A stretch of DNA of 64,000 nt, taken from the IMG/VR virus record IMGVR_UViG_3300032233_002382, positions 1 through 64,000 of that record, one strand, 5' to 3'. The stretch comes from a virus (lineage: Duplodnaviria > Caudoviricetes). Positions 34,574 through 60,793 of the stretch are shown here, piece after piece (positions within the stretch are counted from its first letter, which is position 1; every line of letters starts with the position of its first letter). A program made the position numbers and the translations under genes. The notes beneath the pieces were generated by a model, which worked only from the letters and a program-made list of their open reading frames with translations, did no database searches and was not told where the DNA came from.

Positions 34574-34762
34574 ATGGAGGATTCTAAAGTGAGCTACGTT
34601 ATTCGGGAAGTTTATCCGCTTGGTGGACATAATGTGACGGACAATCAGGGTCAGGTTATGTATTTTCGGTCTGAGCAGGATGCTGAAAAGACTGCATCGA
34701 CTTTGAACAAAATGAAGAAGGATGCTACACGTCTCTTCATAGTAGTGCCCGACACCCATTAA
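34574..34762 (+). CDS. Hypothetical protein
   Basis: 62-aa ORF. Confidence 0.5.
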   Translation: MEDSKVSYVIREVYPLGGHNVTDNQGQVMYFRSEQDAEKTASTLNKMKKDATRLFIVVPDTH

Positions 34763-35266
34763 GATAAGTGCACTGTTGCTGCATAAGCCAGAAGGACTTC
34801 TCGATCTAATACTTCGAGAAGTCCCTCTGGCGTTCTATTATCCAGGAAGTCCATACGTTTGACGTACCCATCAACTTCGATCATGACTGATGCAGACATT
34901 TTGGTAACTAACACCCGGACATCATTGTACCTCAAGACCCATACGACATGAGGATCGTTCGGCATCCATTTCCTTGGATCAGATAGGGCGTTTCGCCATT
35001 TCTCAATCTCAGGATTCATGTATCTTCCTCACTACGATAATTTGACTCAAGAATTCCACGACTTCTTTTAAATCGCGTGCGGACGGTACATCGTCAAAAT
35101 ATCTAGTTTCAAGGTCGTTCTGGATCCGGACTGAAACTGGGATTCCTTTCCGAGATTTCGCCCCTATCAAAACAGCCAATCCCGGTTTATCGAAGTATCT
35201 GTTAACGGGTAACTTCGTTGTGGTTCGTGTCTTCACGAGATTTTCGAGATCGGGAAATGGAACCAT
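34759..35266 (-). CDS. Two small coupled genes (35009..35266 and 34759..35019), both C-terminally tagged
   Basis: Motif at 35306 (-); end VRKIHES and AATVHLS. Confidence 0.7.
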
Positions 35267-35353
35267 CAGACCTCCCACAATACGACGAACGAGTCGGTAG
35301 ATTTCCGAGTGCCTTATGAAGTTCTTATGTGCTTCCGAGTGTAAGGAGAAACC

Positions 35354-35815
35354 ATGACCCCATCTGAACTGTCAGCTGCACTTCGCAAAATCGCCGCTAA
35401 GATCGACGCCTCTAAGAATCCGTCCCGAGAGCTCGTTATTTCAGACATCCAAAGAGTAGCTTCGAGACTGGTTACAGCGGCTTGGCAACCCCACAAAGCT
35501 AAGAATGTAGAAGAAGTAGACATGAGTAAGCTCCCAAGGCAGCTTTTAACCGGTACCACCATGGGAGACATAGTTCGTGGTGTTCTAAAGCACATGAAGG
35601 ACGAACAGCCTGTTAGAATGTCTCTTTCGGGCAAGGGTCCTCTTGGGACTGACATTTCAGTCGACATCGACGACGGTCAGATCACCATTAAGGTGCTTAA
35701 AGCTGAAAAGGATATGAAAGCTCCGACGGATGATTCGGTAGCTTTATCAGCTTCCATGCCTCTCAAGGATTGGGTCAAGGAAAATAAAGCCGCTATCGAA
35801 AAAGAAAAGCGGTAG
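35354..35815 (+). CDS. Protein with N-terminal PSxLSxxLRRIA domain
   Basis: MTPSELSAALRKIAAKIDASKNPSRELVISDIQRVASRL; AAGGAG RBS. Confidence 0.8.
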   Translation: MTPSELSAALRKIAAKIDASKNPSRELVISDIQRVASRLVTAAWQPHKAKNVEEVDMSKLPRQLLTGTTMGDIVRGVLKHMKDEQPVRMSLSGKGPLGTDISVDIDDGQITIKVLKAEKDMKAPTDDSVALSASMPLKDWVKENKAAIEKEKR

Positions 35816-35989
35816 TTCACAAAACGTTCTACTAACTTTTGGGCCGCCTAGGGTAACCTAGGCGGCCCAAATCGTATTTATGGTGCATAATCAAGTTCAA
35901 AGTGCGATCGGAGATCGGCTGGCCACGGCGTCATGTGGATGGGACGGCGCCAGCCGCATTTAGCGGCGGCCGCTCCCTTGGAGCCGACC

Positions 35990-36421
35990 ATGACCCGCAA
36001 CAATCTCTCCACCCTCAACGACACCATGGCGGTGCTCTGCGAGGCGATCCCGCCCATCGTGGCTCAGCCGCCCCTCTATCCCTTCATCGGGGTCAAGGCC
36101 GTCAAGGCCCGCCTCGAGGCGGATCTGGTGGTCCAGCACGCCACCCTGGCGATGCTCTACCACCTGCAGACGGGTGATGAGCAGCAGGCCAGGGACACCC
36201 ACCACAAGAACCGTGCTGGCTTCATGAGCAGTGATGCGTTCACGGGCACCCGGTTGGCTGAGAAGCTGATTCTTGGTCTCGAGCTGGAGCCGGATGAGCT
36301 CGAGCGGGCCTCCCGCATTGCAACCAAGTACTCCAAGCAGCTCTCCATCCAGCTGCGGCGGGTGGCGATGCAGGAGAACCCCATGCTGGCGAGCTACGCC
36401 GTCACTTTCAGCATCAAGTAG
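35990..36421 (+). CDS. Family A copy 3
   Basis: Motif at 35910; GGAGCCGACC RBS. Confidence 0.85.
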   Translation: MTRNNLSTLNDTMAVLCEAIPPIVAQPPLYPFIGVKAVKARLEADLVVQHATLAMLYHLQTGDEQQARDTHHKNRAGFMSSDAFTGTRLAEKLILGLELEPDELERASRIATKYSKQLSIQLRRVAMQENPMLASYAVTFSIK

Positions 36422-36554
36422 TCTGGGCTGAAGACCCCGGCTCCCCTCGAGGGGAGCCGGGGTTCGGCTTAATGTGGATCTGTTTTGAAATAAATCGGAA
36501 ATCGGGCGCGGCTCTCGTCCTGCTTGTGCGGCGCGGTGCCGCAAGGAGTCGACC

Positions 36555-36890
36555 ATGGGACTGGAACTGAATTTGCCTGAGGACTACAAGCTTTCTGCGG
36601 GAGAGATCGACAATATCGTCTACTTGACGTGCAAGTATGCTGTTGACTGGCCTATGCGTCAGGTGGACCTCTTTGTTTGCAAGATGATGGCGGGTCTCGA
36701 TAAGCCAGATGCCCCGACCGGTTCGAAGGCGGTAGAGAAACTGCTTGAAGTAACCTGCGATTATCTGTGGGACCATGTGTGCGGTGAGCCCGATGACTTC
36801 ACCGCAAAGAGTCTCGTTGAGCACATGGAGCCTGCACTAACCCAGTGGTATCAGAACAGCACTCCGGAAGAGCGTGCCAAGACAGAATAA
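36555..36890 (+). CDS. Hypothetical early-type protein
   Basis: Motif at 36497; GGAGTCGACC RBS. Confidence 0.75.
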   Translation: MGLELNLPEDYKLSAGEIDNIVYLTCKYAVDWPMRQVDLFVCKMMAGLDKPDAPTGSKAVEKLLEVTCDYLWDHVCGEPDDFTAKSLVEHMEPALTQWYQNSTPEERAKTE

Positions 36891-36941
36891 TGTAATTTCG
36901 AGGGCCCTGGGAGAATTCTCCCAGGGCCCTAGGGGTGTTTC

Positions 36942-37403
36942 GTGGGCGATAACAGGTATCGAAGTAAGGATCCGGCTTTGAATGATGTCCGATTTCGAAT
37001 CACAGAAGAGATCCGCAAGAATATTGAGGCCACGATCCGAGAAGAGATTGGTCGGCAGGTTAACCGTCAGATCACCCCTCTGCTTAAAGGGGATCTGAAT
37101 GGGATCGTCGTCAGGTACGTGGAAGAGGCCGCAAAGGGGCATGTCGGTGCCGTTCTCGGCATCAATTCCAAAGGTAGGACGAACGATCTGTTTAAGCATC
37201 TTGTTAAGGCAGTTGCGTCAGATCCAGACTTCGCCACAAACATGCGTCAGTTTGTTTTAGGAGAGATGAACCAACTGGTGGAGAGGCACTGGGCGAATGC
37301 ATATAAGAATGGTCTCGCAATGAAGATGAGGAAGATGCTTCGAGATACCTGGCGGGAGATGATTGTGCGGGAGATTCAGGAAGAACCTGGAGATGACAAT
37401 TAA
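36942..37403 (+). CDS. Hypothetical helical protein
   Basis: 153-aa ORF. Confidence 0.7.
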   Translation: MGDNRYRSKDPALNDVRFRITEEIRKNIEATIREEIGRQVNRQITPLLKGDLNGIVVRYVEEAAKGHVGAVLGINSKGRTNDLFKHLVKAVASDPDFATNMRQFVLGEMNQLVERHWANAYKNGLAMKMRKMLRDTWREMIVREIQEEPGDDN

Positions 37404-37492
37404 ATGAGTCCGGGAATCGGCCGCGCCGCGCGTCCTCTTTGTGGGCGCGCGGGCGGGCGCGTCCGACCCAAATTCCGCCCAGGAGCCGACCA

Positions 37493-38176
37493 ATGAGCTG
37501 CATGATCAAGATCGACGGTGTGAAGAAGACCAGCACCCAGAAGGCCCGTGGGTATCGCGGCAACACCCATCGCCCCTGGAACGACCAGCACCGCTCGGTG
37601 GAAGATCTCCTCGGTGTGGGATTCTCGTGCTACACCACCCCTATCATTGAGCACCTGAAGATCTGCAAGGAGTGCAATCTGAATCGGGTCATGTGGTTGC
37701 TCGAGAAGGAGAGCGTGTCCGCAAACTCCCACTCGGAGCGGATCGCAAGGACCTTCTTCGACGACCCCCGGACCACCCGCAAGCAGGCGACCAATACCTT
37801 GGTCAAGCTCCAGGGTTTGAATAGCCTCTTCTGGCTCGGAACCAAGCTTTCGAAGGAGGAATTCTTCGAGGCCATCCGGATGGCCTACCTCAAGGCGGCA
37901 ATGGATTCGGCAAGCTACCGGCAGCTCCCCCTGTTCAAGACGGTGATCCCTCGCAGCGCGCGGGTCGCTTGGGATGCCACCCGTCCGAACGCGGAGGTCG
38001 CGCTCCAGGGCCCTCACCCGTTCGGGCCGGATCGTTCACGATACACCAAAATGTCCGTTGAGAATCGGGAGCTTCTCACGAAGGCGGCCACTCTGATCAA
38101 CGCCAAGATGACGTTCCCGAATACCATGGATGAGCTCGAGCGCACCGCCATCGTCCATAAGATCCAGACTAGCTAG
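37493..38176 (+). CDS. Hypothetical early-type protein, tagged
   Basis: Motif at 37412; GGAGCCGACC RBS; HLKICKEC; ends IVHKIQTS. Confidence 0.8.
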   Translation: MSCMIKIDGVKKTSTQKARGYRGNTHRPWNDQHRSVEDLLGVGFSCYTTPIIEHLKICKECNLNRVMWLLEKESVSANSHSERIARTFFDDPRTTRKQATNTLVKLQGLNSLFWLGTKLSKEEFFEAIRMAYLKAAMDSASYRQLPLFKTVIPRSARVAWDATRPNAEVALQGPHPFGPDRSRYTKMSVENRELLTKAATLINAKMTFPNTMDELERTAIVHKIQTS

Positions 38177-38297
38177 TCTGAAATGGATGCCTGGTCCCCT
38201 CAATGAGGGGACCAGGCATGGTCCGTAAATCCAACATGGAAGTCGTCTGTCTCCCTCGTTCTCTCTGTGGGCGCGTGGTGCGTCCGTGGGGTGTATT

Positions 38298-38636
38298 ATG
38301 CGGATATGTGTCGAGTGTGGCGGGGATTTTGACCCGAAGTCCCCTCAGAAGAAGGCGGTCGGTGGTCTTATTACCCAGTGCCCCGAGTGTTCTGAGGAGG
38401 TCGTGGCTAAGCACGCAGGTGTTACTGCGGGTGATGGTAAGCAGGCTGGAGTCCAGGTATTGGCTTTCGAATCCCCTCAGGCACGCGAAGGATTCCTGAG
38501 TTATTGGAAGGCAGCCACCGGCCTATATACTGGAAAGCAGTGCCAGATGGGTCGAGGCCAACCGAATTCGCCGAAGATGGAATTCCGTAAAGTAACCGAG
38601 CACGGTGTCGGAATGAATCATAAGGGGAAGTCATGA
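38298..38636 (+). CDS. Zn-ribbon protein
   Basis: CVECG...CPECS; motif at 38238. Confidence 0.75.
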   Translation: MRICVECGGDFDPKSPQKKAVGGLITQCPECSEEVVAKHAGVTAGDGKQAGVQVLAFESPQAREGFLSYWKAATGLYTGKQCQMGRGQPNSPKMEFRKVTEHGVGMNHKGKS

Positions 38637-40604: not shown

Positions 40605-40606
40605 TA

Positions 40607-41374
40607 CTAAAGACCGTGAGTAATGAGACCGTTCTCAACGGTAAGGATGTCGTGAACTTCATGACCTTCCCGAGTGGCCACGGCCTCCACAGCCATCGTG
40701 AAAGCATCGATTGGTCTTAAACTATTAAATTCATCCGGACTAAACATCTGAGCACTTTCCGGCGGATCGAACGTCTGTCTTGACCCACCACGTCCGGCTG
40801 ACACCACACTGACTCTAGTCTTCATTCCTCCACAGTCGATCGTACCTTCCACGTTGCTCGCACTTTTTTCGCCCAGGAAATCACACCTGTGGAGAGTTAT
40901 AGTGCATGAAGGACCGAGCTCAGTCGGTCCTATATCGACAGGCTTATTTAAGACGTTGACTTGCCCACCGACAGCAGCTACCAATTTCCTAATATCCTTC
41001 AAAACTAATTCTTTCGAGGGACTCTTAGATTTTTCGATCCCCGCCGCGATGCGGCGGAGTTCCTGACTAAGATCTGACGGTTTCATTCGACTGGCCTTTC
41101 TGGGTTTTTGTGAACCCTTGAGAAATGTTCCGACGAGTTTCGCGATCTCACCGAAGTGCTTATCGCTGAGCTTCTGCTTCTCGATTCCGGAAAGGACGCG
41201 ACCGTAGTGGGCGGCCTTCTGCATTATCGAGTCGTCCATCGGGACCGTGACGCCGCCCTTCTCGATCGCTCCGAGCGCCCCACATAACATCGCGTGCTCT
41301 CTGGATTTCGGGTCCTCGGCGGCTTCTGCGACTCGCTTCGGGTCGCTAAGTTCAGATAAGGATGGCTTCGACAT
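40607..41374 (-). CDS. Protein with internal PSxLSxxLRRIA domain
   Basis: MKPSDLSQELRRIAAGIEKSKSPSKELVLKDIRKL at mid-protein. Confidence 0.7.
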   Translation of the reverse strand: MSKPSLSELSDPKRVAEAAEDPKSREHAMLCGALGAIEKGGVTVPMDDSIMQKAAHYGRVLSGIEKQKLSDKHFGEIAKLVGTFLKGSQKPRKASRMKPSDLSQELRRIAAGIEKSKSPSKELVLKDIRKLVAAVGGQVNVLNKPVDIGPTELGPSCTITLHRCDFLGEKSASNVEGTIDCGGMKTRVSVVSAGRGGSRQTFDPPESAQMFSPDEFNSLRPIDAFTMAVEAVATREGHEVHDILTVENGLITHGL

Positions 41375-42197: not shown

Positions 42198-43577
42198 ATG
42201 GAGAAACAATTAAAGATGTCTTACGGCGATCACCGGATGGTGGCTACCAAAACATTTGATCCCATGGCCGCAAATTTAACGATTCATCTTCATTGTGAAT
42301 CATGCAATAGTCACATCCAGTCGCGATATACCGAGTTTGAACAAGTCCTGAACCCTTCATTTTACGAAGACTTCTTCGAAAGCGCTTGCCGAATATTTCG
42401 AAAAACATTTCCTGAATCGTGTGATGAAACTAAAGTCAAACAAGTTCACGATTCTTGATGTACGGCAGAAGTCTCCAAAATCCGGGAAGACGGAATTCGT
42501 TCGGGTCTGGCACATACTGACGAAGTACATGGCATAGATTCAATTTGTTTTCGAATTACTCATGATGCACGGAGTCAGCTATCCAGTATTGAGTCGCGAC
42601 CTGTACCATAGTCTCGACTACCTGATCCACTGTCGGATTCGGCGGACACTTGGCGAGACAGGGTGTTCTTGCTTGCCAGCCAACGTCCTGAGTGATTCCA
42701 AGATCGCCCATTAGAGCTAAGTCATCGCCTGCTTGGCTCGAGAGCATACTTCCGAACCTCAAGAGCCACGTGCTTCGATCATTCAAGTCATCTTCCGTTG
42801 CTTCCACATTAACTTCCCATACTTCAAAAAGGTCTCCGTGACGTTCATTGAACGCTTTGGAGACCTTTCCGATAAACTCCTGGGTCACCACTGCTCCTTC
42901 CTCCAGTCCCGCTTAGTTTCACGGGACTTTCGGCGATCCTTCATGATGCGGGTACCAGCCTTTCCGGCCAGCACCATCTGCATCGCAATGTAATTTCGCG
43001 GCTTCTTGACTTCAATTCTCATCTCAAGCTTCGGCTTGTCCATTTGATCCTCCATCAACCAAACGAGCGAACGATCCAATTTCCGAATTCGTTTGACTGT
43101 GGTGTAATTTGTTGTATGGCAGAGAAGCGACCGATACTCGTCATTAAGGGTCAAGCGGCGCTTCCGTTTGCTGATATATGCACAAATAAGCGTCACGTAT
43201 CTTATCTGAGACCGATCTTTGAGTGTAATGCTCCTTCATGCGCTCCGAAAAAACTACACGCAGCTTAATAAATGCCTAGAATCGCACATTCGAAACGCCC
43301 TGGTAGTCTTCGTCGCAAACATAACCGCGAGCGGTTGATTAAAGCGCGTATTTTATTGAAAGAGAAAGAAATTCATATACGCGAAGTCGAACAGCTCACC
43401 GGGATCGGAGTAGGACAAACAACCCTGATGATCCAGGGTAAAGCCAGAATGGATCAAGTTACTGTTATGCTAATAGAGACGATCGCGAAGTATCCATCAA
43501 CGATGCGTCAGATTGAGCTCATGTGGCAAGGCCATACAATTGATGAAGTTGCGGCCATCATGGTTCATGAATCATGA
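42198..43577. CDS. Four small genes: 42198..42458(+), 42556..42891(-), 42885..43196(-), 43272..43577(+); three carry the C-terminal tag
   Basis: End VKQVHDS, ADSVHHE and AIMVHES; the last has an HTH-like IREVEQLTGIG segment. Confidence 0.6.
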
Positions 43578-44756
43578 ACTTGCCATGCTGCGTGTTCGTC
43601 GCAGTCTAGAGCTGTGTGAATTCCATCATAAATTTCGATCCTTGCGTCATTCGGTGGCTTGTCGTTCGCCAACCAAGCAAGGCGTCTATCAATATCAGAA
43701 CTCGTGCCTCCGCACTTACGACAAACCCAGTAGTCGCCTAGTCGGAGTTTCCCGATTTCAGATGGTACTTCATGCGGTTTAATATAGAACCACAAATGAG
43801 CCATTTCAAACAGTACTTATGCTTCCATCATTTCTCTTACGATTTTCTCATTCTTAACGTCGTCACAAGTTAATATAACGCACCCAGTAGTTGCGGCTCC
43901 GAAGAGAATAGTTATGTACATTCCACCATGTGCCATAGATCCGCATTTAGTACACTGACCACCAAACCGGTTCGAACGCACCCAGTGTCCGTAGTTTTCC
44001 TTTGAATGCTTTAAATTCCATACGACATCATAAACGAATCGAATTGGAGTCCATATGCGCCAATAACGCATATATGTCTCTTTATAAACCATGGTGAAAA
44101 TTAATCCGAGGAATGGACCAATTATGAAGACAATCATGAAGATCTCTTGAGTCATTCGATATCCGTTTATATTGGTGTTCACTCATGACTTATGGATCTG
44201 AGCTACCATGAGCTCATCGCATGTCATGTGGTTTCCTCCCCCGACCCATATTTTAGCTTCGTTTGGTGGTTTGTCTGAGACGAAATGGAACATCCAAGAT
44301 GCTATGTTCTTATGAGTTGCACTACACTTAGTACACTGCCATTCATTATGAGAACCCCTGTCGACTAATTCCCATTTATGGCTCATGAGCTCGTTACATA
44401 GCGAACAATGCAATCTCTGTCCAAACATTCTTTAGCTTCAATTCCATGCCGACATTTTTCCTGAACAAACAAATCATTCAGATTGTATGGCTCGTGAAGG
44501 AGATCTGCAATTGCATTTGCGATAAAGGCAAGTATGATTCTCACGATTTCATCACCTGGGCTAACACTATCTGATGGCAGTGGTAGAATGCTGCCTTACC
44601 GTGTCCGTCTATGATCGTTATCTGAAATTCCGGGAGTGGTTTACCGTAGTGTTGACATACTTTATATCCGCAGTTCTGACATCGATACCAAATCTCGCCA
44701 TACTCACTTTCGTCATCAGTCAGCTGCCAGTCATGATGTTCAAGATCCATGAACAA
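43565..44756 (-). CDS. HxW-CxxC-C Zn-finger microproteins, cluster 1 (43565..43804, 43817..44182, 44183..44386, 44541..44756)
   Basis: Shared H-x-W...C-x2-C...C + tag architecture. Confidence 0.7.
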
Positions 44757-45329
44757 ACGCTGCCTGACATTCGGGATCTTCGCAGTATCGAATATCCCGT
44801 GAATGTTTACATATGTTGTTCAGGGCCCTCATGATCCTAGCGTCTTCTTCTGCCTGTATTTGGAGCTTCATCTGATGTTCTAGATGCGACATAATATCAA
44901 CCGACACAGAATCGACCAAAGCATTCGATGTGGACTCCAGAACGATCTTTCTCAGTTTATTGATCATGAATCAACTCGACTATGCACGATTTATCGTCAC
45001 ATTTTTCTGCTTCTTTAAGATGCTTACATATCGAATACCTACCATATATGGATCCGAATAAAATCGATTTCGCATCATTTCGGATTAAATTAATTTCTTG
45101 TTCGAAGTGTTCATTCGTCGTGGATGTACTCAGCGACGCATTTAGGGTTATCGCATTCACCTGGTCTTTTATCATGTTCGCAGTTCCATTTCAGGCCGTA
45201 AATCAATGCGTCGTGTACGCTCGGTGGATACCTGTTCATATGTGCCTGACTATGCTTCTTAGCCATTTCAAGCCACTTCTTTTTGTCCTCTTCCGTCACT
45301 TCCGGGATCGGAAACCTGATCGAGGTCAT
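44383..45329 (-). CDS. CxH-x6-C-x4-C microproteins (44383..44544, 44740..44967, 44957..45175, 45111..45329)
   Basis: Identical ligand spacing in four ORFs; 44383..44544 found by manual translation. Confidence 0.7.
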
Positions 45330-47938: not shown

Positions 47939-48599
47939 CTAAGAGTTATGGACTTCATAGACGGGTCGGTTTTTGATCTTATTCGCGATCGTGATTCCGA
48001 TCTTCCGAAGGTTCATCATTGATTCAGGCCTGAAGCGAACTCGATAAAACATACGAGGGTGTTGCTCAACCGTCATCACGTAAACCGAGACTTCGCGTTC
48101 ATCAACGCCGATCGAGAGGTTGTAGGAGTGATCATCTTTCGTGATTAGGATGTCCCATCCCTCATGAGCCTCCGCTCGCATCTTAAACCTAGGACGGTTG
48201 AAGACGGAGCGGAGGCTCGTCGAGACGTGATCCCTTAGAGCGTAGAATGGCTCGCGACTATGCAGCACTCTTCTTCGCCTTCTGGATTGCCTGAGCGTAC
48301 TTGGTCAGCTCGTAAACAGCTCTCTCAAACCGGCTGTGCGCTCGCGACCAATCCTGCTTACACTCGAGAGATTGCTTCTCCCAGTCAGCCCCCTTCTCCT
48401 TCTCGAAGCGCTTGAAGTGGTCGTTCTTGTCGTCGTGGGCGTTCACAAGTTCCTCGAGAAGAGAATCGAGTCCCTTGTCCAGCGCCTTGGCCTCGATCTC
48501 AAGACTGTAGAGTCGTGTGCTGACGGCCTTGTTCAGTTCAGTCGTCGCGTTACGGATGGTTTCGATCGCCTTCGTGATCATCTCGGTCTCGGTCATCAT
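47939..48599 (-). CDS. Two genes: 48258..48599 (coiled coil) and 47939..48268 (tagged, VYEVHNS)
   Basis: Motif at 48660. Confidence 0.7.
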
Positions 48600-49966: not shown

Positions 49967-51124
49967 TCAGTGCTCGTATGGGTGTGGAACGACAACAACT
50001 TCTCCATCTTCAGTCTCAACTTCCACCGATCGGTTTTCCAGCACCTTCATCTGCAACTTCGGGCTAGTTCCAGCAAAGGCTAGAATTAGGGCTTCATCTG
50101 GGTGGATGGCTTCGTGGTGACCTTCCCCGCACCACATGAACATCCGGATTGGTGGGAAAATGTCCATGTACTTAAGCTTCGGATGATCGATCTTGATGAC
50201 TAGACAGTCTTCAACCCGAGTCTCACCGACTTCCCAAGCGTATCCGTGAGTTTCAATCATTCCCTTGATGCAGGTGCGAGCCCAGCCAGGAAGAGACTTA
50301 ACGTCTTGCTTCTCGAACTTCATCCCGGAATTGACGAGCTCTTCGAACTTATCTGAAACTCTCGCGATCAGATCGTCGATTTCCTTGTCGGTCATCTTAG
50401 GCTCCCATCACATTCTCTACGCAGAATTCATCAAGTGCTTCCTGGAACACCTGCTGCCATTCTTCTCGAGTCAGCTTCGCTACGTTGCGCTGCCCCATCC
50501 AATGTTTAAGCCGGAGCTTTACTCCATCAGTTACTTGGGTCTTCTGGTATTGCCTCAAATTCGATACTTCAACTTCTTCAAAAGACTGGACCTGACCGCC
50601 AAGCCACCTAATATGGCCTTCGCTATACTTGTCTTTCCACTTCGTCGGATCGCCGTGAGTTAACAGGTGTTTCTCGCAAATCCCGATGATGGCTTCTTGT
50701 CGCCAACGACCGTTTGTCCGAACCTTGAAGAACTTCTTCCCATACTTCGGGCACGTACCGATCTTTTCGTGGTTGTACTTCTCGTTGAAGCTCTTCACGA
50801 GCACCTGACATCTGGTCGACATATTACCTCCTATTCCGAATGAGTCCGTCTAACTTCCTTATCATGACTACAGATCTTCATCAGATTCACATAGTGCAGA
50901 ACGGCTGCCATCGGAGCATGGTGGATTATCGCGACAAAGTACTCGCTCTCTTCTAGCTCGGAGAAATACTCCGCATCTTCATGGCCCGCATTCGGGCCAG
51001 ATATTACAACGAATCGGGCTCGAGGACTAGTCTCTTCGCCCTCGATACCGGTTACTAGACTATAATCATAATCGGTATCGACTATGATCGACCCGACACG
51101 AATCTCATCGGACGAAATAGGCAT
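49967..51124 (-). CDS. Three hypothetical genes (50831..51124, 50397..50822, 49967..50395)
   Basis: Motif at 51168; the first two end VRRTHSE and VENVMGA. Confidence 0.7.
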
Positions 51125-51491: not shown

Positions 51492-51992
51492 TCGCAGGAT
51501 CGAGCAAACGAGACAGCTTCAGACTTAGCCGTCTCGAGGCTATTCGAACTCCCGTTACCGACTAAACAGCCGTTCCCCTGTTCGTCGAACTGCATGACGG
51601 TCCAAAAGTACTTGCCTCGAAAATTGGTAACCGAAACTTTTTTATCGCTAAAAGACGTTTCATAGTTCTCGCGATCATCCTGCGCCCAGTTCATTTCGAC
51701 TCCATCAGGTTTCGTGAATATCCTCTAAGATATCGTCCACAAAAGCTGGGCTCAACGGAATCTCTCCTAAAATCCTCTCGAATTGCTCGGGAGGCGCGCC
51801 AGCTTTCGCTAACGCTACCGCCTGAGCAATGCAAGCGTTCTTCATGTTCTGTGCGGCGAATTTATACGCCTCATCCGAGAGACGCTGATATTCCCGATAG
51901 GCGTTATGTAAATCAGCCTGAAGCTTCTGAATGGTTTGTTCTAACTTCATGGCTCGATTTTTGAGGTCGTTAAATTCGACTGCCGGTTTCAT
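51488..51992 (-). CDS. Two small genes (51705..51992 tagged LEDIHET; 51488..51694)
   Basis: Tight operon spacing. Confidence 0.65.
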
Positions 51993-53555: not shown

Positions 53556-55522
53556 TCACGAGTTGTGGATCTTATCGATAAACGTCTGTTCTCTTTCCCA
53601 CATCTTGATACAGATTCGATTGCAAAATGTCGTGAAACCGCAATGCTCAGTGCAATGACCCGCTACACACCGTTTATCCTTGAACGATCGGCAATTCTCC
53701 CTCGAGCAATAGTATTTCATCTTCCTAGATTCGGAATGGTAACAAGCCCCGAAACCTGCAATGAACGCAGTGATTGCAGCGAGGATTCCAATAGCAATCG
53801 CTTGACCTACCATCATTGCTTCATAACCCAAAGAACCGGTTCATCTCGAGCGAAATCCCAATAAACCTTCCCATCCTTTGTCGACCCTGTAACCTTCACA
53901 ATCTTAGACCAGATCGGGCGTCCGCCGGTCGAATTCCGATTCGGTAGAATCGTCACAATTTTCGTGTCACCGGACGACGTGCTCAGGTACCCGGAAGCCG
54001 TATCCCCGTGCTCATACCAGACCTTCACGCGTGTGCGGTATGAACGACCCGGATGTTTAATGAGATCGAGCATTACCTTGCAAAGGGACTCCGGCCATTC
54101 ATTGCGGAAAGTGATCCCATCGATGATCATGTGTTCATGACTTTCTCCAAGACATCTTTGACTTGATCCCAAAACACCATCTTCCGAACGGTCAACCGAA
54201 TGACGTCCGGGCGAAGCCATTTCCAGGTTTTAGCCTTCTGAGTCTTAGTGATAGCGGGAAGAGTAAGTTCGTTTTTCGATTTTGGGCAGAGGTAACCGGA
54301 TTCGTGAGTCCCGTCCGAATAATGAACAGTGACCCAAATCGGAAGGTTCTCGGTCTGCTGAATTACGAAGAAGGAGACACGCTCCTTCAGCTCGTCTGGC
54401 CACTCATCAAAGAATGAGAGGTCAGACGCTTTCACAATGTTTACTCAACCTGTTAGCCAGGTTCTGAATAGCTTCCTGTGGAGTCTTACCGGTTGTCTGA
54501 ATTCCGACACACGCCGCAACCCACCCGTCCGGCGTCCTTGCAACCACGACCGGTCCAGTCCGGTCGAGCCTAATATCATCCAAGTCAACATTCATCTCAG
54601 GACTCCTCATAAGCTTTCAGCGCGGCCAGATATGGCTCCGATTTTTTAATGGCGTCTTCGATGAACGCTAAATACCTACCAGGTGGGGTTAGAACTCGAC
54701 CACTATCGTCTTGAGCTAGAATGTCCCTCTCTGGCTCATTGATACCTACGACGGCGTTTGCGGTGAACTGAATGCCATCCATCACTCCCTTCACAGTGAA
54801 GGAAGGAGTATCGATCGGGTCCAGTGTCTTGATGAACTCGGGCGATTTCAGATCAGCATCGGTCAGTGCGTAGTCATCCTTGAAGTTACGTTCGATGGTA
54901 CTGATGCTTAGTCTCATTTAGTGCTCCTTGATTCGCTTGCCATCACCGATCCAAAACATCCCAACCCCGTTCGAGCGGTCGAGCCACTCGTCCAGATTGG
55001 CGTGAAGGAAAGCACGCCATTCGGTATCGGTCATGCCCTTCGAATCATGCTGAGGTGGGCAGATGTCCGAATGGACGCTCTCCCCGTCCTCGTTGAGATA
55101 CTCGATTTCTGCGTGAACTTCGGCCATGTGTGCAACCTCCACCCAACGAACGAGCGGAGCGACCGATTTCCGGATTTGACTTAAGCTTCCATGACTTTCT
55201 TGACTTTCTTTAAACTTGGGCAGTCATCAATGATCTTTGATATCTGTTCGGTCGGATCTTGAGTATAGAAATAATAGTGGGCAAGAGACCCTATCATAAA
55301 TATCACTTCATAAAGCGATTTCTGACTGCCTAATATGTACCCGCGAATGAATCCCAGTCTTGTGGCTCTAGAAATATCGCCGCTACCGGCATCGGATAAC
55401 ACGTATCCTGGGACAGCTTCTATAGCTTCTTCAAAAGTCTCGCCGAGTCCGACGCCGATATCCTTAGCCAACAAGCGCTCGTACTGGTTTATACCGTGAA
55501 GGAAGACCCTTATCTGCGGCAT
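53556..55522 (-). CDS. Run of small genes: 55181..55522, 54918..55127, 54597..54917, 54422..54610, 54127..54435, 53813..54220, 53556..53831
   Basis: Motifs at 55564 and 55171; four end in the tag; 54127 and 53813 share W..L...V.V.Y..G....GYL. Confidence 0.7.
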
Positions 55523-56079: not shown

Positions 56080-56083
56080 ATGG

Positions 56084-56296
56084 TCACCTCGTTTGGACGT
56101 CCCGAGCCATAGAAATCGGAAAATAAGTGTTGATCAAAAGACCCTTATCTTCTCGGCTCAACGTTACCGTCATCAGATCCGGATCGTAAGTCACCAAGTG
56201 ACCAAAGGCACGGCGACCATCAGACAGCTGGACGTCCACGTTTTTACCCACGAGCTTCGCAAGACCTTGAGGAGTCTGCCATTCACCGTTCTGCAT
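56084..56296 (-). CDS. Sm/LSm-like (Hfq-fold) protein
   Basis: LAKLVGKNVDVQLSDGRRAFGHLVTYDPDLMTVTL matches the Sm1 pattern. Confidence 0.65.
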   Translation of the reverse strand: MQNGEWQTPQGLAKLVGKNVDVQLSDGRRAFGHLVTYDPDLMTVTLSREDKGLLINTYFPISMARDVQTR

Positions 56297-56340
56297 TTAA
56301 ATCCCCTTTAGGGGTTAGAAGTGAGTCATGCTCGTTTAAA

Positions 56341-58706
56341 TCACGAGCCATTGATTTTACTTACAATGATCTCTTCGCAGGTTCCCGTATGTCTTAAATC
56401 GCCTTTTACGATACGATCAGGTTCTGGCGTAGATCCATCATGAACAACTTCGGTAACTCCGCAGTTCAGGCATTTCCACAAGTTATAACGAGGCGGGGGT
56501 CTTTTGGTTCGGTTCACCCAATCATGAGGCATGAACTTGCTCCGCCTGCTTCTCCTCGCAGGTAAGCCACTTACCCCCATTACCCTGAACCAGCATCCCT
56601 GAATGCGGGCTCTGGTCCAGGTTAATCATCATCGTAGAACCACAATTGCGGCAATGGTACCGCTCCCAGTAATTGTCAGGGGAACTGTCCGTAATCGACC
56701 ATCGATGACCCATGTGAGCCTCCACGGACCGGACGAGCGGAGCGGACGACTTCCAGATTAGCTTCGATGAACACTCTCGGCTTGTTTCTCTTCGCAAGTC
56801 ATCGGCGGTCCGTTATGATAACTAGACACGAGCTCTTCCCCGTCAGGAGGTTCATGAATCTTATAGATTACTGATCCGCATGAAAGGCATTTATATCTGT
56901 AGTGTTCTTGGCTTGTTCGGCCTTGTCCTTCCCACTTCCATTTATGAGACATTCACGACTCCATCACGTTCTTCGCAACCGCCTCACTACAGGACATGTG
57001 AATTTTCTGAAATGGTATGTTCCCGTACCAGAATTTGTAATGAGGACTGGGCTTCTTTCTTTGATGCCATTCGTGATCACAATTCGTACATTTCCAATAC
57101 GAGCAAGCATTCGTCTCTATCCACACCCAACTATGCATCTTGGATGTTCTCCACCATTTTCTCTTTACAATTGAGCAGCTTTTTCCGGTCTTTCGATAAG
57201 GAGAGTCCTGTGGGCTTGGGCGGTGTAGGATCCATGTAGCTAGAAGCGCGAGAATCACAACGGGAGCAAATCCAGAAATGAGTTACCCTATCGTCCTCGG
57301 TAGGGCCCTCAAACCCTCGATAAACCCAGTCATGATTCGTGGACATCAGCGGCTTGAGCCTCCATACACGTCATGAACGTGGCGACGCGTACATGGTCTC
57401 TATATATCTCCGCACTCATAGGACTTGGAATGCCTTCCCGACATCGAGTGAGGCTATGACAGTTCTGACACTCCCACCATCCGGACTTCGCACCGGACTT
57501 AATGCTTGGATCAGTATAGCGCTTCCAGTTATGATTCATGTACTGACCTCACGGTCATTAGTTCTTGGATTTCTTCACATGAAACATCTTTAGCATCTCT
57601 AAAACTAAGCTTAAAATCTTCGCTAGGTTTCCCAGATTGCGTCCACTGGGAACCGCAGTTATTACAACGCCACAGGGTGTCCCACCCGCTATTCGTAAAA
57701 TTCAAGATCTTAGTGACTGGTAACCAGTTATGATTCATGGATCAGCCTAGCCTGAAGTTCTTCACAAGTCAATTGGCCGAGTCTGATACCAACTGAGACC
57801 AAGAGTACTGAATCGGGCGGTTCATCATCCATCTCCCCAATCCCCCATTCAAGGCACTTCTGACACCGGAATTCGAACTGTCCGAACTTATTCCGACCAT
57901 CATATTTCCACTCATGAGGCATGAAGGTTCCTGACCTGAATTTCTTCACATGTCATTTTGACGGTCTTGGTCGGGATCTTCATCTCTGGATCAGGGTCCG
58001 GTGCACTTTGATGGGTTCTGGTATAGCAACCGCATTTTTCGCAATGGAATGTAACCGTGGTCGAATGAGAGGGCCACTCGTGACACTGCCAATCATGAGG
58101 CATGTACTTCTCTCACAATATTGAGTTCCGACATTTCATTACACTGAAGGAACGCACCCGTCTGATAATCGAACACTTTCTCAGTCGGATCAGGCTTGCT
58201 AGCGTGGAACGACCAGTGATCGCACTTCTTGCACCACCAGTAACCGCCAAGTTCAATATATCTATGACGATTGGACCGATTCGGCGAGAAGAAGGTTCGA
58301 AACCAGTTCAACCATCCGTTTAGCTGAAGCTTCATCTCGGGTGTTACCTTCTATGAAGTGGCCATAACCTTGTAACGCATACTTCCAGATGGAATCCTTG
58401 CTCCAGACCGAGGCATTGCAACCATCATCACTTACATAGAAGAATCTACCAGAACCAGGATCATATTGCCATCTAGGATTCTTGAACATGATACACTTTC
58501 ATGAGATGGCAGTCATGGAAATCCAGTGTGAATCGGTTCGGATGCTCCAGTCGACAAGGCTGAAAGTATTTTACCCCATTATCCTCGGCCTGCTCGAACA
58601 AAACAGGTCGGCCGGGCGTCGGATAGACGTCCCCGACCCAGTAAGTTGCACAACTCCGACACATCCACACTCGATTCAGATTGGTTTTGATCCAGGTGTG
58701 CCTCAT
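56341..58706 (-). CDS. HxW-CxxC-C Zn-finger microprotein array, cluster 2 (11 members plus tagged 58262..58489)
   Basis: 56341..56532, 56522..56713, 56758..56952, 56953..57138, 57131..57346, 57330..57539, 57529..57738, 57728..57922, 57912..58103, 58093..58335, 58473..58706. Confidence 0.8.
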
Positions 58707-59185
58707 TAGACTCCCCCATACTTCTTCTCCATCTGGTCTAGCCACTTAAATAACGCGTCGTTTGGCTTACTGTAAGCGTAATAGTCCGTTTCGTGTTCAG
58801 GTGAACTCGGACTCGCGTGCTTCCACCGGCCAGGGAACTTGATGACCTCACCGTCATCATAAGTCTTCTCGTGTGGTTCCAAGATATATTCGACGGGCTC
58901 ATTGCAGACCGAGCACCAGGAGCCAATTAAATTCGACACATTCTCGATTTCCGAGGGAAGAATCTCGTTAAGCTCTTCAAGAGGCTGGACGGTTCCGAAT
59001 GGCGGACCGTTATCATAATGATATTCCTGAAAGACGAAGTGGCGACCGAATTTCTCTCGAATTCCATTGAATCCGTTTTCAGCTTTATTAAAGACACCGA
59101 ACTTTAAGTTCCTTGACGCGATGCGATATAAGACTCGATCCTTACAATCTTCTCGCTTGATGTATCCAGGCATGGTCCTACTCAT
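58706..59185 (-). CDS. Hypothetical protein
   Basis: 159 aa, WCSVC. Confidence 0.7.
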   Translation of the reverse strand: MSRTMPGYIKREDCKDRVLYRIASRNLKFGVFNKAENGFNGIREKFGRHFVFQEYHYDNGPPFGTVQPLEELNEILPSEIENVSNLIGSWCSVCNEPVEYILEPHEKTYDDGEVIKFPGRWKHASPSSPEHETDYYAYSKPNDALFKWLDQMEKKYGGV

Positions 59186-59683
59186 TCTGAAGATTTCGGA
59201 CCATCATCTGGTCACAGTCGTGGAAATTAGTAAACTGAATCTTAGCGGAACTTAATGGTCTGCAGCAATAATAAATGTCCATCCCATCCATCTCTTTTAT
59301 GCCTAGTCCAATTGTCATAGTTCGGTTCGGAAGGCGGTTACCAAGCCACTTCGTCTTACACTGGTTACAAATCCATGTCGAATGATATGCACTAAGTTCT
59401 TCCCATTTATGAGCTCGCATGCTCAAGCCTGATTAACATGCAAAGTCGCCATGAAACCGCAGTCGCGGAATTCACTTACATCGAACTGGTGTGGAACATG
59501 CATCCCAACTTCGTAGTAGGAAACGCCCCCAGTCTGAGAGACTGTTCCCTGCACATTCTTCACCGTGGTCGGGTAGCTCGATCCACGATACCTGGTTCCG
59601 CAATCCGAGCAAATGAACACACGAGAATGGATGCTGCCCTGTGATAAGTCGGGACCAGATTTCTTCCATCGGTGTTTCTTCAT
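59178..59683 (-). CDS. Two more Zn-finger family members (59423..59683, 59178..59426)
   Basis: HRW/HKW...CxxC...DC + tag; motif at 59745. Confidence 0.75.
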
Positions 59684-59758
59684 TATTCACCAACACGCCA
59701 GCGCGGCGGCCCCCATGATAGGAACGCGCCGCGCCGCTGATTTCCGTGTATGATTTAG

Positions 59759-59932
59759 CTATTCCGCCTGAGACGGTTTCTCAGGCCTCACCATACAAAA
59801 GCGGCAATTAGGATCTCTACACTGGGCCTCTAGCCACTTGTCGCACGGGACGCAATAGTATGCGTCATGTCGATCGTTCCGGATGACTTTGGGTTTTGCG
59901 CAACCGCATTCAGGATAGAATTTAGGCATCAT
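59759..59932 (-). CDS. Cys-rich 57-aa protein (not in ORF track)
   Basis: ...DAYYCVPCDKWLEAQCRDPNCRFCMVRPEKPS. Confidence 0.7.
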   Translation of the reverse strand: MMPKFYPECGCAKPKVIRNDRHDAYYCVPCDKWLEAQCRDPNCRFCMVRPEKPSQAE

Positions 59933-60793
59933 TATCATCCATTGGATCTGGGAGACCGCGAATCACCCACGCACACTCGTCGGCTCCGTGGGCGGTCAAA
60001 GACTCGTGTGGATGAGCGAGAGCCGACCGACATTTCATGGCCACAAGGTCGCTTGCCTGTGCTGCCGCATCCCGCATCGCTTTAACGCCTCGTTTGAAAG
60101 CTAACTTCTCATAGTCCTTGCGGAGAGCGATCATCTCGGACGTCATCTTATTCACGTCTTCTTGAGAGTACGTCAGATCTACGGGCTCTGCAAGAACTTC
60201 ATTGATTTTGTGCTCAAGTTCGCCAATGTATCGAACGCCCATATACTCACCAAGAACGAGACGGTTCGAAGCGATAACGCCCTGGGCTTCTTCAAGAGTT
60301 TCCCTTATCTTATCACTCATCTTGAACATTCCTCACTGACATGTATTCGCAGTCGTGGAAATTCCATTCTACGATATAGACACCAGCTCTTACATCTGGA
60401 ATTCTATGAAATTGCGACATCTCAGTACCCTGAAAATGCTTGGTGTAACACTGTCCCTTGCGAGGCTTTTCCATCCCGTAGGCGGTGGAATCACATTCAT
60501 TGCAAATCCAAAACAAATCACGCTCTGGAGCTTTTCTCCATTTGTGCGTTTTCATCCGATTTTGCCTCCAAGTAGGACTTCAGAAGATTGACATCTTGGA
60601 TTATCAAATCTATCTTCTTCTGATTCGGTGGCTTCCCGTACGAACCATCCTGGTGACACTGAATCTGGAATTCCTGCTCCCGAACCATATCACATACTAC
60701 CTTTCGATAGGCTTCCATCAGCTCATCGGGTGAGAATCGAACTGACTTATCGTACATGGCAAAATGAAGATAATTCTCAACGGTCGGCTTCAT
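59922..60793 (-). CDS. Three genes: 60518..60793, 60313..60555 (Zn-finger family, VRNVQDE), 59922..60329
   Basis: Motif at 60838. Confidence 0.7.

What the first reader, a model, noticed from the sequence alone, without database searches (positions are those of the whole stretch)
34759..60555. A common C-terminal tag on about 37 small proteins of different folds: candidate undescribed docking, degron or sorting system
Seen: the last seven residues fit [VIAL]-x-x-[VIL]-[HMQN]-x-[SATE]-stop. Examples: VRKIHES (35009), AATVHLS (34759), VHKIQTS (37493), VKQVHDS (42198), AIMVHES (43272), AWQVHDS, VREMMEA, VAQIHKS, LAQVMKS, AAFVHGS, VELIHDQ, AEYIHDE (43.5-45.3 kb), VYEVHNS (47939), VENVMGA (50397), LEDIHET (51705), IDKIHNS, VLWVMKQ, LEKVMNT, VKKVMEA (53.5-55.5 kb), VSKINGS, AEQVHAS, AESVHRS, AKNVMES, VENIQDA, AADVHES, VRSVHES, ARLIHES, VRNLHAS, VREVHAS, AESVQSS, VYHVQES, VRNLQNE, TLHVNQA, VRNVQDE (56.3-60.6 kb). 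It is always exactly terminal, on both strands, with varied codons (CAT, CAC, ATG, CAA), so selection looks protein-level. It is absent before 34 kb and from the recognisable enzymes, and never co-occurs with the IASRI leader. Established: free C-termini are read by ClpX, Tsp/Prc PDZ domains and SSB-tail binders, and poxvirus ankyrin/F-box proteins pair a variable binder with a constant C-terminal dock. Inference: a library of variable target-binding modules plugged into one hub (protease, RNAP or scaffold), or a timer that clears early proteins. I know of no description of this motif.
Basis: partly seen in the sequence, partly recalled or inferred. Interest (0 to 1): 0.92.

Follow-up and report, generated by a model that had tools for sequence, protein, structure and literature searches.

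The report
Shared C-terminal tag on phage proteins
About one gene in seven of this uncultured 308-kb phage, including 36 genes in this window, ends in the same short helical peptide placed exactly two residues before the free end; it looks like an address or docking tag on fast-evolving proteins of unknown function, and what reads it is not known.

Summary
The core [VILAM]-x-x-[VI]-[HMQ] is followed by exactly two residues and a stop in 36 proteins of this genome. Any other offset from 0 to 12 occurs 0-3 times.

The "different folds" claim is half right. Of the 36 carriers in the window, 17 belong to one unnamed family of about 65 aa that looks like a zinc ribbon (M-x-H-x-W ... CxxC ... T-C-E-E ... 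V-x-x-V-H-x-S), arranged in tandem. In that family the tag is the only helix. The other 19 match the family only over the last 9-13 residues.

Outside the family, 27 of 103 genes at 34.5-92 kb carry the tail, against 5 of 255 elsewhere.

The tag marks a clade of uncultured huge phages. It ends 109 of 550 genes in a complete 377-kb relative and about 1.5% of ORFs in more distant phages. Eight of ten detectable orthologs at 24-43% identity keep it. It does not depend on the next gene's start signals, and codons vary. An earlier scan report on the 377-kb phage reached the same view.

Best reading (0.55): a portable tag anchored on the free C-terminus and read by one common partner. The partner and the outcome (docking, sorting or turnover) are unknown. 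I found no published description.

The parts
34759..35019 (-). 86-aa carrier, ends AATVHLS; probable paralog of the next gene by eye, not tested
35009..35266 (-). 85-aa carrier, ends VRKIHES; 11-nt overlap with the next gene
   Evidence: hhalign matches the family only over the last 9 columns
37493..38176 (+). 227-aa carrier, ends VHKIQTS (tail at 38176); its match in L004 at 30% identity ends IEVNRA
42198..42458 (+). 86-aa carrier, CxxC ... SCDETKVKQVHDS; convergent gene end with no downstream gene
   Evidence: hhalign matches only the last 13 columns
42556..42891 (-). 111-aa carrier, ends ADSVHHE; convergent gene end
43272..43577 (+). 101-aa ORF (my gene finder starts it at 43428, 49 aa) with a weak HTH match, below Pfam's cut-off, ends AIMVHES; its 3' end overlaps the next gene by 13 nt on the near-palindrome GTTCATGAWTCATGAAC
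43565..43804 (-). Family member, 79 aa, ends AWQVHDS
   Evidence: HMM E 4e-14
43817..44155 (-). 112-aa carrier: hydrophobic N-terminal stretch plus CxxC ... TCDD ... VREMMEA; partial relative of the family
   Evidence: 38 columns aligned, probability 66
44183..44386 (-). Family member, 67 aa, ends VAQIHKS
44541..44750 (-). Family member, 69 aa, ends LAQVMKS
44740..44967 (-). Second small Cys/His group (C-x-H ... C ... C), 75 aa, ends AAFVHGS
44957..45175 (-). Second small Cys/His group, 72 aa, ends VELIHDQ
45111..45329 (-). Second small Cys/His group, 72 aa, ends AEYIHDE
47939..48181 (-). 80-aa carrier without Cys, ends VYEVHNS; the next gene has its own AAAGGAGG ribosome-binding site after the stop
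50397..50822 (-). 141-aa carrier, ends VENVMGA; orthologs at 49% identity end VEEVQSA and VEEVQDA
51705..51992 (-). 95-aa carrier, ends LEDIHET
53556..53831 (-). 91-aa carrier with a hydrophobic N-terminal stretch and many Cys, ends IDKIHNS
53813..54130 (-). 105-aa carrier, ends VLWVMKQ; probable paralog of the next gene by eye, not found by BLAST
54127..54435 (-). 102-aa carrier, ends LEKVMNT
55181..55522 (-). 113-aa carrier, ends VKKVMEA
56084..56296 (-). 70-aa weak carrier, ends ARDVQTR; found only with the relaxed pattern and may be chance
56341..56532 (-). Family member, 63 aa, MPHDW ... VSKINGS
56522..56713 (-). Family member, 63 aa, MGHRW ... AEQVHAS; 11-nt overlap in which HAS-stop also encodes MPHD of the next gene
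56758..56952 (-). Family member, 64 aa, MSHKW ... AESVHRS; Ser is AGC and a 44-nt gap follows
56953..57138 (-). Family member, 61 aa, ends AKNVMES
57131..57346 (-). Family member, 71 aa, ends VENIQDA
57330..57539 (-). Family member, 69 aa, ends AADVHES
57529..57738 (-). Family member, 69 aa, ends VRSVHES (helix longer by one turn)
57728..57922 (-). Family member, 64 aa, ends ARLIHES
57912..58103 (-). Family member, 63 aa, ends VRNLHAS; this is the one modelled (pLDDT 85; three strands and helix 52-62, which is the tag)
58093..58335 (-). Family member, 80 aa, ends VREVHAS
58262..58489 (-). 75-aa carrier without CxxC, ends AESVQSS
58473..58706 (-). Long-form family member, 77 aa, ends VYHVQES
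59178..59420 (-). Long-form family member, 80 aa, ends VRNLQNE
59423..59683 (-). Long-form family member, 86 aa, ends TLHVNQA
60313..60555 (-). Long-form family member, 80 aa, ends VRNVQDE

Best explanation
The tag is the last two turns of a C-terminal amphipathic alpha-helix. Its consensus is hydrophobic(-7)-x-x-[V/I](-4)-[H/M/Q](-3)-[E/D/N](-2)-[S/A/E](-1)-COOH. An acidic helix start such as T-C-E-E or P-E-D often precedes it.

Shown:
- The tag is selected as protein sequence.
- It always ends exactly two residues after the [H/M/Q].
- It sits both on one large family of small zinc-ribbon-like proteins and on many proteins with no detectable relation to that family or to each other.
- It is confined to the non-structural part of the genome, which is rich in genes without a Pfam family, in one clade of uncultured huge phages.

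Inferred: it is a portable tag anchored on the free C-terminus. One common reader, encoded by the phage or the host, would bind the helix end together with the terminal carboxylate. That would give all carriers a shared fate, such as docking on a hub, sorting to a place, or timed removal. The variable body of each carrier would supply its individual activity or target.

For: - Register: the core [VILAM]xx[VI][HMQ] is followed by exactly 2 residues in 36, 98, 26 and 15 proteins of G000, G002, G003 and G001. Every other offset from 0 to 12 has 0-4 proteins, and two control phages have 0-2 at every offset. A ruler measured from the free end points to recognition of the terminus.
- Unrelated carriers: hhalign aligns the non-family carriers to the family profile only over the last 9-13 columns. 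BLAST all-against-all links none of the larger carriers to one another. The two AlphaFold models differ in fold: a 63-aa sheet plus one helix, and a 255-aa protein with a helical C-terminal bundle.
- Selection: 8 of 10 orthologs of carriers at 24-43% identity keep the tail, against 6 of 391 orthologs of non-carriers. Orthologs of the 141-aa and 255-aa carriers conserve the tail region best.
- Independence from the next gene: the tail ends 44 of 104 genes followed by a gap over 15 nt and 8 of 37 convergent gene ends. For overlapping or abutting genes the figure is 38 of 62.
- Shifts shared by unrelated carriers within a lineage: -3 is mostly H here (30 of 52) and in L016. It is M in L018 (26 of 28), L014 (9 of 10), L008 (7 of 8) and G003 (26 of 33). 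Position -1 is L or Y in all six L016 carriers and in none of the 52 carriers here.
- Clade-wide spread: 109 of 550 genes in a complete 377-kb relative, nearly all between 100 and 280 kb. L018 has 28 of 47 and L020 has 22 of 38. More distant phages have 23 of 1542 ORFs.
- Carriers have almost no known domains. The 105 carriers of G002 match 10 Pfam families, and four of them are ankyrin-repeat proteins, a typical protein-binding module. The 102 non-carriers of this genome match 63 families.
Against: - No reader has been found, and nothing shows binding, sorting or turnover.
- In both models the tag is part of a confident helix that belongs to the folded domain, not a flexible tail. The hydrophobic positions -7 and -4 may therefore be buried inside each carrier. 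I had no model coordinates to check this.
- In the 65-aa family the helix starts at an invariant Cys that is probably a zinc ligand, so there the helix is structural as well.
- Many small carriers have a Cys just before the helix. They may be very distant relatives of one family.
- The tail is somewhat more frequent where genes overlap (61% against 42%).
- In GC-rich relatives E-V is often encoded GAG-GTN, which resembles a ribosome-binding site.
Confidence: 0.55

Rival explanations
1. Inherited structural helix. All carriers would descend from one old family of mini-domains, or would have captured its 3' end. The terminal helix would be kept because it packs against the rest of each protein and caps itself well. 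No outside reader would be involved.
For: - The helix is confidently modelled as part of the fold in both carriers tested.
- 17 of 36 window carriers are one family in tandem arrays.
- Partial relatives exist at 42198, 43817 and 65946.
- Many small carriers in L018 and L008 have a Cys just before the helix, as in the family's T-C-E-E.
- T/S-x-x-E is an ordinary helix N-cap (established knowledge).
Against: - Carriers range from 37 to about 300 aa and have different predicted architectures.
- Only the last 9-13 columns align.
- A self-packing helix does not need to stop exactly two residues after [HMQ] in more than 170 proteins of four genomes.
- Shifts at -3 and -1 shared by unrelated carriers within one lineage are hard to explain without a common partner.
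- The H/M/Q choice suggests a pocket of fixed shape rather than generic packing.
Confidence: 0.25
2. Degradation tag. This is a special case of the reader model. The tail would be read by an ATP-dependent protease or an adaptor, so that this class of proteins is cleared at a set time in infection.
For: - Free C-termini are what ClpX, Tsp/Prc and FtsH read (established knowledge), and the register is exact.
- The tail-rich block encodes a MoxR-like AAA+ ATPase (68483-69583) and a protein joining a VWA domain to a zinc metallopeptidase domain (70783-72267). The HExxH and MIDAS motifs are intact.
Against: - The tag is helical and confidently modelled (pLDDT about 70-90), unlike known unstructured degrons.
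- The ATPase-peptidase pair is widespread in large phages that lack the tag: 1.5% tails in 57 loci, and 0-6% in L019, L026 and L027, where the peptidase is 46-51% identical.
- A published comparison proposes a role in virion assembly for this pair (PMC7824862).
Confidence: 0.12
3. By-product at the nucleotide level. The tail would be the ribosome-binding site and start codon of the next gene, read in the upstream frame. That includes the 11-nt overlap in which H-x-S-stop also encodes M-x-H of the next paralog.
For: - About ten junctions have CATG..TCATRA overlaps. There, upstream V-R (GTG AGG) provides a ribosome-binding site and CATG provides the start.
- In L018, E-V is often GAG-GTN, and the last codon ends in A or G before TGA, which gives ATGA or GTGA starts.
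- The tail is more frequent at overlapping genes (61% against 42%).
Against: - 42% of genes followed by a gap over 15 nt and 22% of convergent gene ends carry the tail, against a background of about 1.5-2%.
- Third codon positions vary freely, His is CAT or CAC, and Ser is TCN or AGC.
- An in-frame ATG for Met cannot start the next gene.
- Overlapping genes without the tail are common.
- Orthologs keep the residues with different codons.
Confidence: 0.04

Closest known systems
Capsid-targeting sequence of phage T4 internal proteins (IPI-III, Alt)
   Same: A short terminal peptide shared by unrelated phage proteins that gives them a common destination. This genome also has a separate shared N-terminal leader on at least ten proteins.
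   Different: The T4 signal is N-terminal and is cut off by the prohead protease. This tag is C-terminal, helical and measured from the free end. It sits on 11-20% of all genes and lies outside the structural modules. Packaging was not tested.
Cargo-loading peptides of encapsulins and encapsulation peptides of bacterial microcompartments
   Same: Short terminal peptides, helical in microcompartments, on non-homologous proteins of one locus. They dock cargo on the inner face of a protein shell. Encapsulin shells have the phage HK97 fold.
   Different: Those peptides follow a flexible linker, and their sequences differ (encapsulin consensus near LTVGSLKG; microcompartment peptides conserve only amphipathicity). 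Here the sequence and the two-residue register are strict, the helix is part of the fold, and no shell partner is known.
Adaptors with a constant C-terminal dock: the ClpX-binding peptide of SspB, and poxvirus ankyrin/PRANC (F-box-like) proteins
   Same: A variable target-binding body joined to a constant C-terminal element that plugs into one hub. Four carriers in the 377-kb relative are ankyrin-repeat proteins.
   Different: The SspB peptide (ending LRVVK) and the PRANC domain of some tens of residues (from memory) have no sequence likeness to this tag. Only ankyrin families matched in Pfam. No hub is known.
C-terminal degrons (the ssrA tag and ClpX C-motifs) and C-terminal translocation signals (Dot/Icm effectors)
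   Same: They are read from the free C-terminus and occur on many unrelated proteins. Dot/Icm signals combine an acidic block with a hydrophobic residue at -3 or -4.
   Different: Those signals are unstructured and loosely defined. This one is helical and has a sharp consensus. The terminal residues are polar (S, A or E), not LAA-like.

Membership tests
Known Pfam / PHROG families (for the 65-aa M-x-H-x-W ... CxxC ... C family) | Match to a curated profile above its cut-off | tested here: not met
   Ten members were scanned against Pfam at E up to 1. Only sub-threshold zinc-ribbon matches appeared (best 15.7 bits against cut-offs of 23-34). PHROGs gave none. PF20576 (HEWD) and PF07874 (DUF1660) find nothing in the genome.
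Classical zinc ribbon | Two CxxC/H knuckles on beta-hairpins | tested here: inconclusive
   The invariant residues are H3, W5, C21, C24 and C52, so there is one CxxC plus a single His and a single Cys. The model has three short strands and one helix. The best fold matches are weak: Foldseek E at or above 0.45, VIA Z at or below 2.6. Metal binding was not tested.
T4-type capsid-targeting sequence | N-terminal position, removed at a prohead-protease site | tested here: not met
   The tag is at the extreme C-terminus. Cleavage cannot be tested with these tools.
T4-type capsid-targeting sequence | Carriers are virion proteins | not testable with these tools
   Carriers lie outside the structural region: 2 of 77 genes at 0-100 kb of G002. 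No proteomics is available.
Encapsulin cargo-loading peptide | C-terminal peptide on non-homologous cargo | tested here: met
Encapsulin cargo-loading peptide | Consensus near LTVGSLKG after a flexible linker, with the shell gene nearby | tested here: not met
   The consensus is hydrophobic-x-x-[VI][HMQ][EDN][SAE], at the end of a helix modelled with confidence. A shell partner was not sought.
Microcompartment encapsulation peptide | Terminal amphipathic helix of about 18 residues on unrelated proteins of one locus | tested here: met
   Helices 52-62 and 237-254 in the two models. The carriers are unrelated.
Microcompartment encapsulation peptide | Shell proteins (BMC-H / BMC-P) encoded alongside | not tested
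   None appeared among the families listed in the Pfam census of 102 proteins. Only 25 of the 63 families were shown.
ssrA / ClpX C-motif degron | Unstructured tail ending in non-polar residues such as LAA | tested here: not met
   The last residues are mostly E, D or N followed by S, A or E, and the tail is helical in the models.
Poxvirus ankyrin/PRANC adaptors | Ankyrin repeats followed by a C-terminal F-box-like PRANC domain | tested here: not met
   Four G002 carriers match ankyrin families only. No PRANC or F-box family is among the ten families found.
Translational-coupling signal (ribosome-binding site plus start of the next gene) | Present only where a downstream start lies within reach, with conserved nucleotides | tested here: not met
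   The tail is present at 42% of genes followed by a gap over 15 nt and at 22% of convergent ends. Third codon positions vary.

The most novel reading that the evidence does not exclude
A clade of uncultured huge phages runs its own protein-addressing system. A C-terminal code of about 12 residues, read from the free carboxylate by one dedicated reader, would mark 50-110 fast-evolving effector proteins per genome. These include ankyrin-repeat binders and mini zinc proteins.
Probability: 0.3. Interest if true: 0.92.

Novelty: new variant of a known kind. Interest (0 to 1): 0.8.

Why it matters
Most genes of huge phages have no known function. Here one gene in five to nine, all from that unknown part, carries one sharply defined label. 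That groups dozens of otherwise unclassifiable proteins per genome into a single functional class.

It also offers a practical handle. The tag peptide can be used as bait to find its reader, and with it what this class of proteins does. If the tag is a dock or sorting signal, it would be the most widely used terminal address known to me in a phage. It would also be a ready-made tool for directing foreign proteins. The 65-aa family, with 228 cluster representatives in public metagenomes, is itself an unnamed and widespread small-protein family.

Tried and rejected
- Chance: rejected.
- Ribosome-binding site or overlap as the sole cause: rejected.
- DNA or RNA repeat, or a cassette recombination site: not supported, because codons vary. 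The near-palindrome at 43565/43577 is a single convergent overlap.
- Alternative genetic code: not needed. Table 11 gives 92% coding density.
- Close relatives among GenBank phages: none for the array DNA or a family member. The nearest record, LR745208.1, shares a ligase at 40% identity and has no family match.
- IMG/VR scan with one family member: no relatives.
- Fold searches of both models (PDB and AlphaFold DB clusters by Foldseek, and VIA-wide): nothing above noise. Weak rows naming Rad52-, Sak- or Bet-like proteins for the 255-aa carrier (E 0.1-0.4) are not usable.
- ESM Atlas leads (HEWD, DUF1660): not confirmed.
- Complex prediction of the VWA-metallopeptidase with a family member: no answer (score 0.00). 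This counts neither for nor against binding.
- Phylogenetic profiling for a reader: not decisive. The complete tail-free genome G005 shares almost nothing with this phage. The nearer tail-poor relative is a fragment whose second contig is not held.
- Whole records behind L014, L016 and L018-L020: not held.
- Sequencing runs: one DNA holder, probably the source sample, and no RNA holder listed.
- Literature: four searches found no description of the tag.

Full report
**Setting**

The window is the first 64 kb of a single 307,777-bp contig. IMG/VR classes it as a linear virus record, about 72% complete. It encodes ThyX, a PurA/PurZ-like enzyme and an ATP-dependent ligase. Beyond the window it encodes RecA, RuvB, four proteins with sigma-70 region 4, and structural modules. 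No GenBank phage is close. The best match is the uncultured 485-kb record LR745208.1, whose ligase is 40% identical.

**Checking the observation**

The coordinates given are each gene's low coordinate. For the plus-strand genes 37493-38176, 42198-42458 and 43272-43577 the tail therefore sits at the high coordinate.

A slightly relaxed pattern gives 36 called genes in the window.

Three tests show this is far beyond chance:
- A position matrix built from family members of other metagenomes puts 36 of 356 non-family C-termini above the 99.5th percentile of internal windows. The expectation is 1.8.
- Among non-family genes, 27 of 103 at 34.5-92 kb end in [VIL][HMQ]xx, against 5 of 255 elsewhere (Fisher 9e-12). 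The internal frequency of that dipeptide is 1.6%.
- The core [VILAM]xx[VI][HMQ] is followed by exactly two residues in 36 proteins, and by any other number from 0 to 12 in at most three.

**What the carriers are**

Seventeen of the 36 window carriers belong to one family of 61-86 residues (HMM; alignment A1). The pattern is M-x-H-x-W, then CxxC, a P-x-P stretch, and T-C-[ED]-E-x-x-[VA]-x-x-[VI]-[HMQ]-x-S. Seven more hits, one of them marginal, lie at 65.9, 122.3, 190.0 and 259-260.3 kb.

A profile search of 1.84 billion representative proteins found 228 clusters at E up to 1e-3. Nearly all are 57-90 residues long and match end to end. Of the 134 small hits, 102 end in the tail pattern.

In a 115-sequence alignment the invariant residues are H3, W5, C21, C24 and C52. 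I read this as a His-Cys3 zinc site, which is an inference. The family matches no Pfam or PHROG model.

AlphaFold2 with this alignment gives pLDDT 85: three short strands and one helix, residues 52-62. That helix is the tag. Fold searches find only weak likeness to generic zinc ribbons.

The other 19 carriers are not detectably family members. hhalign aligns them to the family profile only over the last 9-13 columns. Two are partial relatives: 42198, and 43817, which keeps the CxxC. Three form a second small Cys/His group (44740, 44957, 45111). Two pairs (34759/35009 and 53813/54127) look paralogous by eye but not by BLAST.

Beyond the window the same tail ends unrelated proteins of 103-255 residues at 66-79 kb. 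An earlier first-reader note had also flagged these. None has a Pfam match above the curated cut-off.

A second model, of the 255-residue carrier at 73511-74278, has pLDDT 83. Its tail is helix 237-254, at the end of a helical C-terminal region. This differs from the architecture of the 63-residue protein.

**Protein or nucleotide signal?**

About ten junctions in the arrays overlap by 11 nt. There CAT-GAA-TCA-TAA reads H-E-S-stop in one frame and M-N-H-N in the next gene. Other first-reader notes saw this too. Upstream V-R (GTG AGG) then acts as a ribosome-binding site.

This cannot be the cause of the tag, for these reasons:
- Third codon positions vary freely, His is CAT or CAC, and Ser is TCN or AGC.
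- Met at -3 is in frame and so cannot start the next gene.
- Over four genomes or loci the tail ends 42% of genes followed by a gap over 15 nt and 22% of convergent gene ends. For overlapping or abutting genes the figure is 61%.

The overlap is best seen as secondary dual use of a conserved junction.

**Selection**

Orthologs of the 141-residue carrier (50397-50822) at 49% identity end VEEVQSA and VEEVQDA.

Seven orthologs of the 255-residue carrier at 45-61% identity conserve the last 60 residues best. They end AIE[IV][QT]KS, with one more divergent (VSIIQKS).

Across four genomes, 8 of 10 orthologs of carriers at 24-43% identity keep the tail. Only 6 of 391 orthologs of non-carriers have it.

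**Spread**

The tag is a clade trait. Around the conserved VWA-metallopeptidase gene:
- A 382-kb NCBI contig has 28 tails in 47 genes, 26 of them V-M-x-x.
- A 377-kb JGI contig has 22 in 38.
- A 322-kb contig has only 2 in 34.

A 42-kb contig holding a distant family member has ten or eleven tails in 19 consecutive genes (ten by the [VIL][HMQ] rule), and only one of these is a family member. A 3-kb contig shows a second zinc-binding family (C ... C ... ARC-x-H) with the tail T-[RF]-[ED]-E-Y-x-V-x-x-[VI]-M-[EQ]-S.

Among 80 IMG/VR loci fetched with the peptidase profile, the three whose peptidase is 70%, 62% and 44% identical have 29-45% tails. Two loci at 46-50% identity (L026, L027) have 0-5%. 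The 57 most distant loci have 23 tails in 1542 ORFs, or 1.5%.

In whole records:
- The complete 376,674-bp genome G002 has 109 tails in 550 genes. Nearly all lie between 100 and 280 kb, and 2 of 77 lie in the structural 0-100 kb.
- G003 has 33 of 277 and G001 has 21 of 299.
- The controls G005 and G004 have 7 of 618 and 5 of 222.

An earlier follow-up report in this scan describes the same tag on a 377-kb phage and reached the same view. My counts were made independently.

**Preferences shared within a lineage**

Position -3 is mostly His here (30 of 52) and in L016. It is Met in L018, L014, L008 and G003. Position -1 is Ser, Ala or Glu in most genomes, but Leu or Tyr in all six carriers of L016. 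Family and non-family carriers of one genome share these preferences.

**What the carriers do**

The 105 carriers of G002 match only ten Pfam families. Four carriers are ankyrin-repeat proteins ending QKVM[SN][AT]. The ten largest carriers include only one above-cut-off domain, a DHHA1 protein whose tail is probably chance. By contrast, 102 non-carriers of this genome match 63 families.

Recognised enzymes inside the tail-rich block all lack the tag.

**Interpretation**

The facts that matter most are these:
- An exact two-residue distance from the free end.
- Carriers with no other detectable relation.
- Retention where the rest of the protein has diverged to about 25% identity.
- A residue choice at -3 (His, Met or Gln) that suggests a pocket of fixed shape.
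- Shifts within a lineage that are shared by unrelated carriers.
- Restriction to one genomic compartment.

Together they fit best a tag anchored on the C-terminus and read by one partner (confidence 0.55). Whether the outcome is docking on a hub, sorting or turnover is open.

The main rival (0.25) is that the helix is only a structural element, inherited or captured. Both models place it inside the fold. In the small family it starts at a probable zinc ligand. I could not inspect coordinates to see whether -4 and -3 are exposed.

A degron read by the phage's MoxR-like ATPase and VWA-metallopeptidase is a special case (0.12). Both genes sit in the block at 68.5-72.3 kb, with intact Walker, HExxH and MIDAS motifs. 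However, that pair is common in phages without the tag, and a published comparison links it to virion assembly (PMC7824862). My one complex prediction gave no answer and is not evidence either way.

**Comparison with known systems**

The nearest concepts are:
- the T4 capsid-targeting sequence;
- encapsulin and microcompartment loading peptides;
- adaptors with a constant C-terminal dock (SspB, poxvirus ankyrin/PRANC);
- C-terminal degrons or translocation signals.

The tag shares with each the logic of a short terminal label on unrelated proteins. It fails at least one defining feature of every one of them (see the membership table). Four literature searches found no description of it.

I rate it a new variant of a known kind of system: a real and unusually pervasive tag whose reader is unknown.

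Noticed in passing
window 56341-58335 and 35009-35019: 11-nt gene overlaps in which cATG-nn-TCA-TRA encodes H-x-S-stop of one gene and M-x-H-(D/N/E/K) of the next paralog. The downstream His is the probable first zinc ligand.
   Followed up: yes
window 43565-43577: Two convergent carriers overlap by 13 nt on the near-palindrome GTTCATGAWTCATGAAC, so that both strands read V-H-[ED]-S-stop.
   Followed up: partly
window 3879-5054 and 1931-3235; G000 81477-82775: An adenylosuccinate-synthetase-like protein of 391 aa (another reader suggests PurZ and a 2-aminoadenine genome), with ThyX nearby in the window and an adenylosuccinate lyase at about 81 kb.
   Followed up: no
window 27935-28309, 35354-35815, 40607-41374, 60879-61385; also G000 69.7, 216-220, 262 and 282 kb: Ten proteins share an N-terminal leader (M-x-P-x-[DE]-L-S-x-A-L-R-[RK]-I-A in two of them). 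None carries the C-terminal tag. It may be a separate N-terminal targeting peptide.
   Followed up: partly
G000 68483-69583 and 70783-72267 (L011:4483-5583, L011:6783-8267): A MoxR-like AAA+ ATPase, and a protein joining a VWA domain to a zinc metallopeptidase domain (HESYH, MIDAS DTSGS, four invariant Cys). It is a conserved core gene of the clade, with 427 homologs at E up to 1e-10.
   Followed up: partly
G000, regions 1-136 kb and 255-308 kb: Four proteins with sigma-70 region 4, plus RecA, RuvB, a RecD2-like helicase, an NAD-dependent ligase and an RRM-domain protein. Their positions were not resolved, because the census reports families rather than members.
   Followed up: no
L008:255-2120: In an unrelated 3-kb metagenome contig, a second family of small zinc-binding-like proteins (C ... 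C ... ARC-x-H) carries the same 13-residue tail next to members of the main family.
   Followed up: partly
G002 208420-209913 and 221146-221619 (L111, L112): Four paralogous ankyrin-repeat proteins of 123-213 aa end in the tag (..EQAKxxLxVQKVM[SN][AT]).
   Followed up: partly
window 14000-16000, 20000-22000 and 36000-38000: Stretches at 58-64% GC in a genome that averages 46% GC. Another reader reports a repeated tripartite motif in front of small GC-rich genes there.
   Followed up: no
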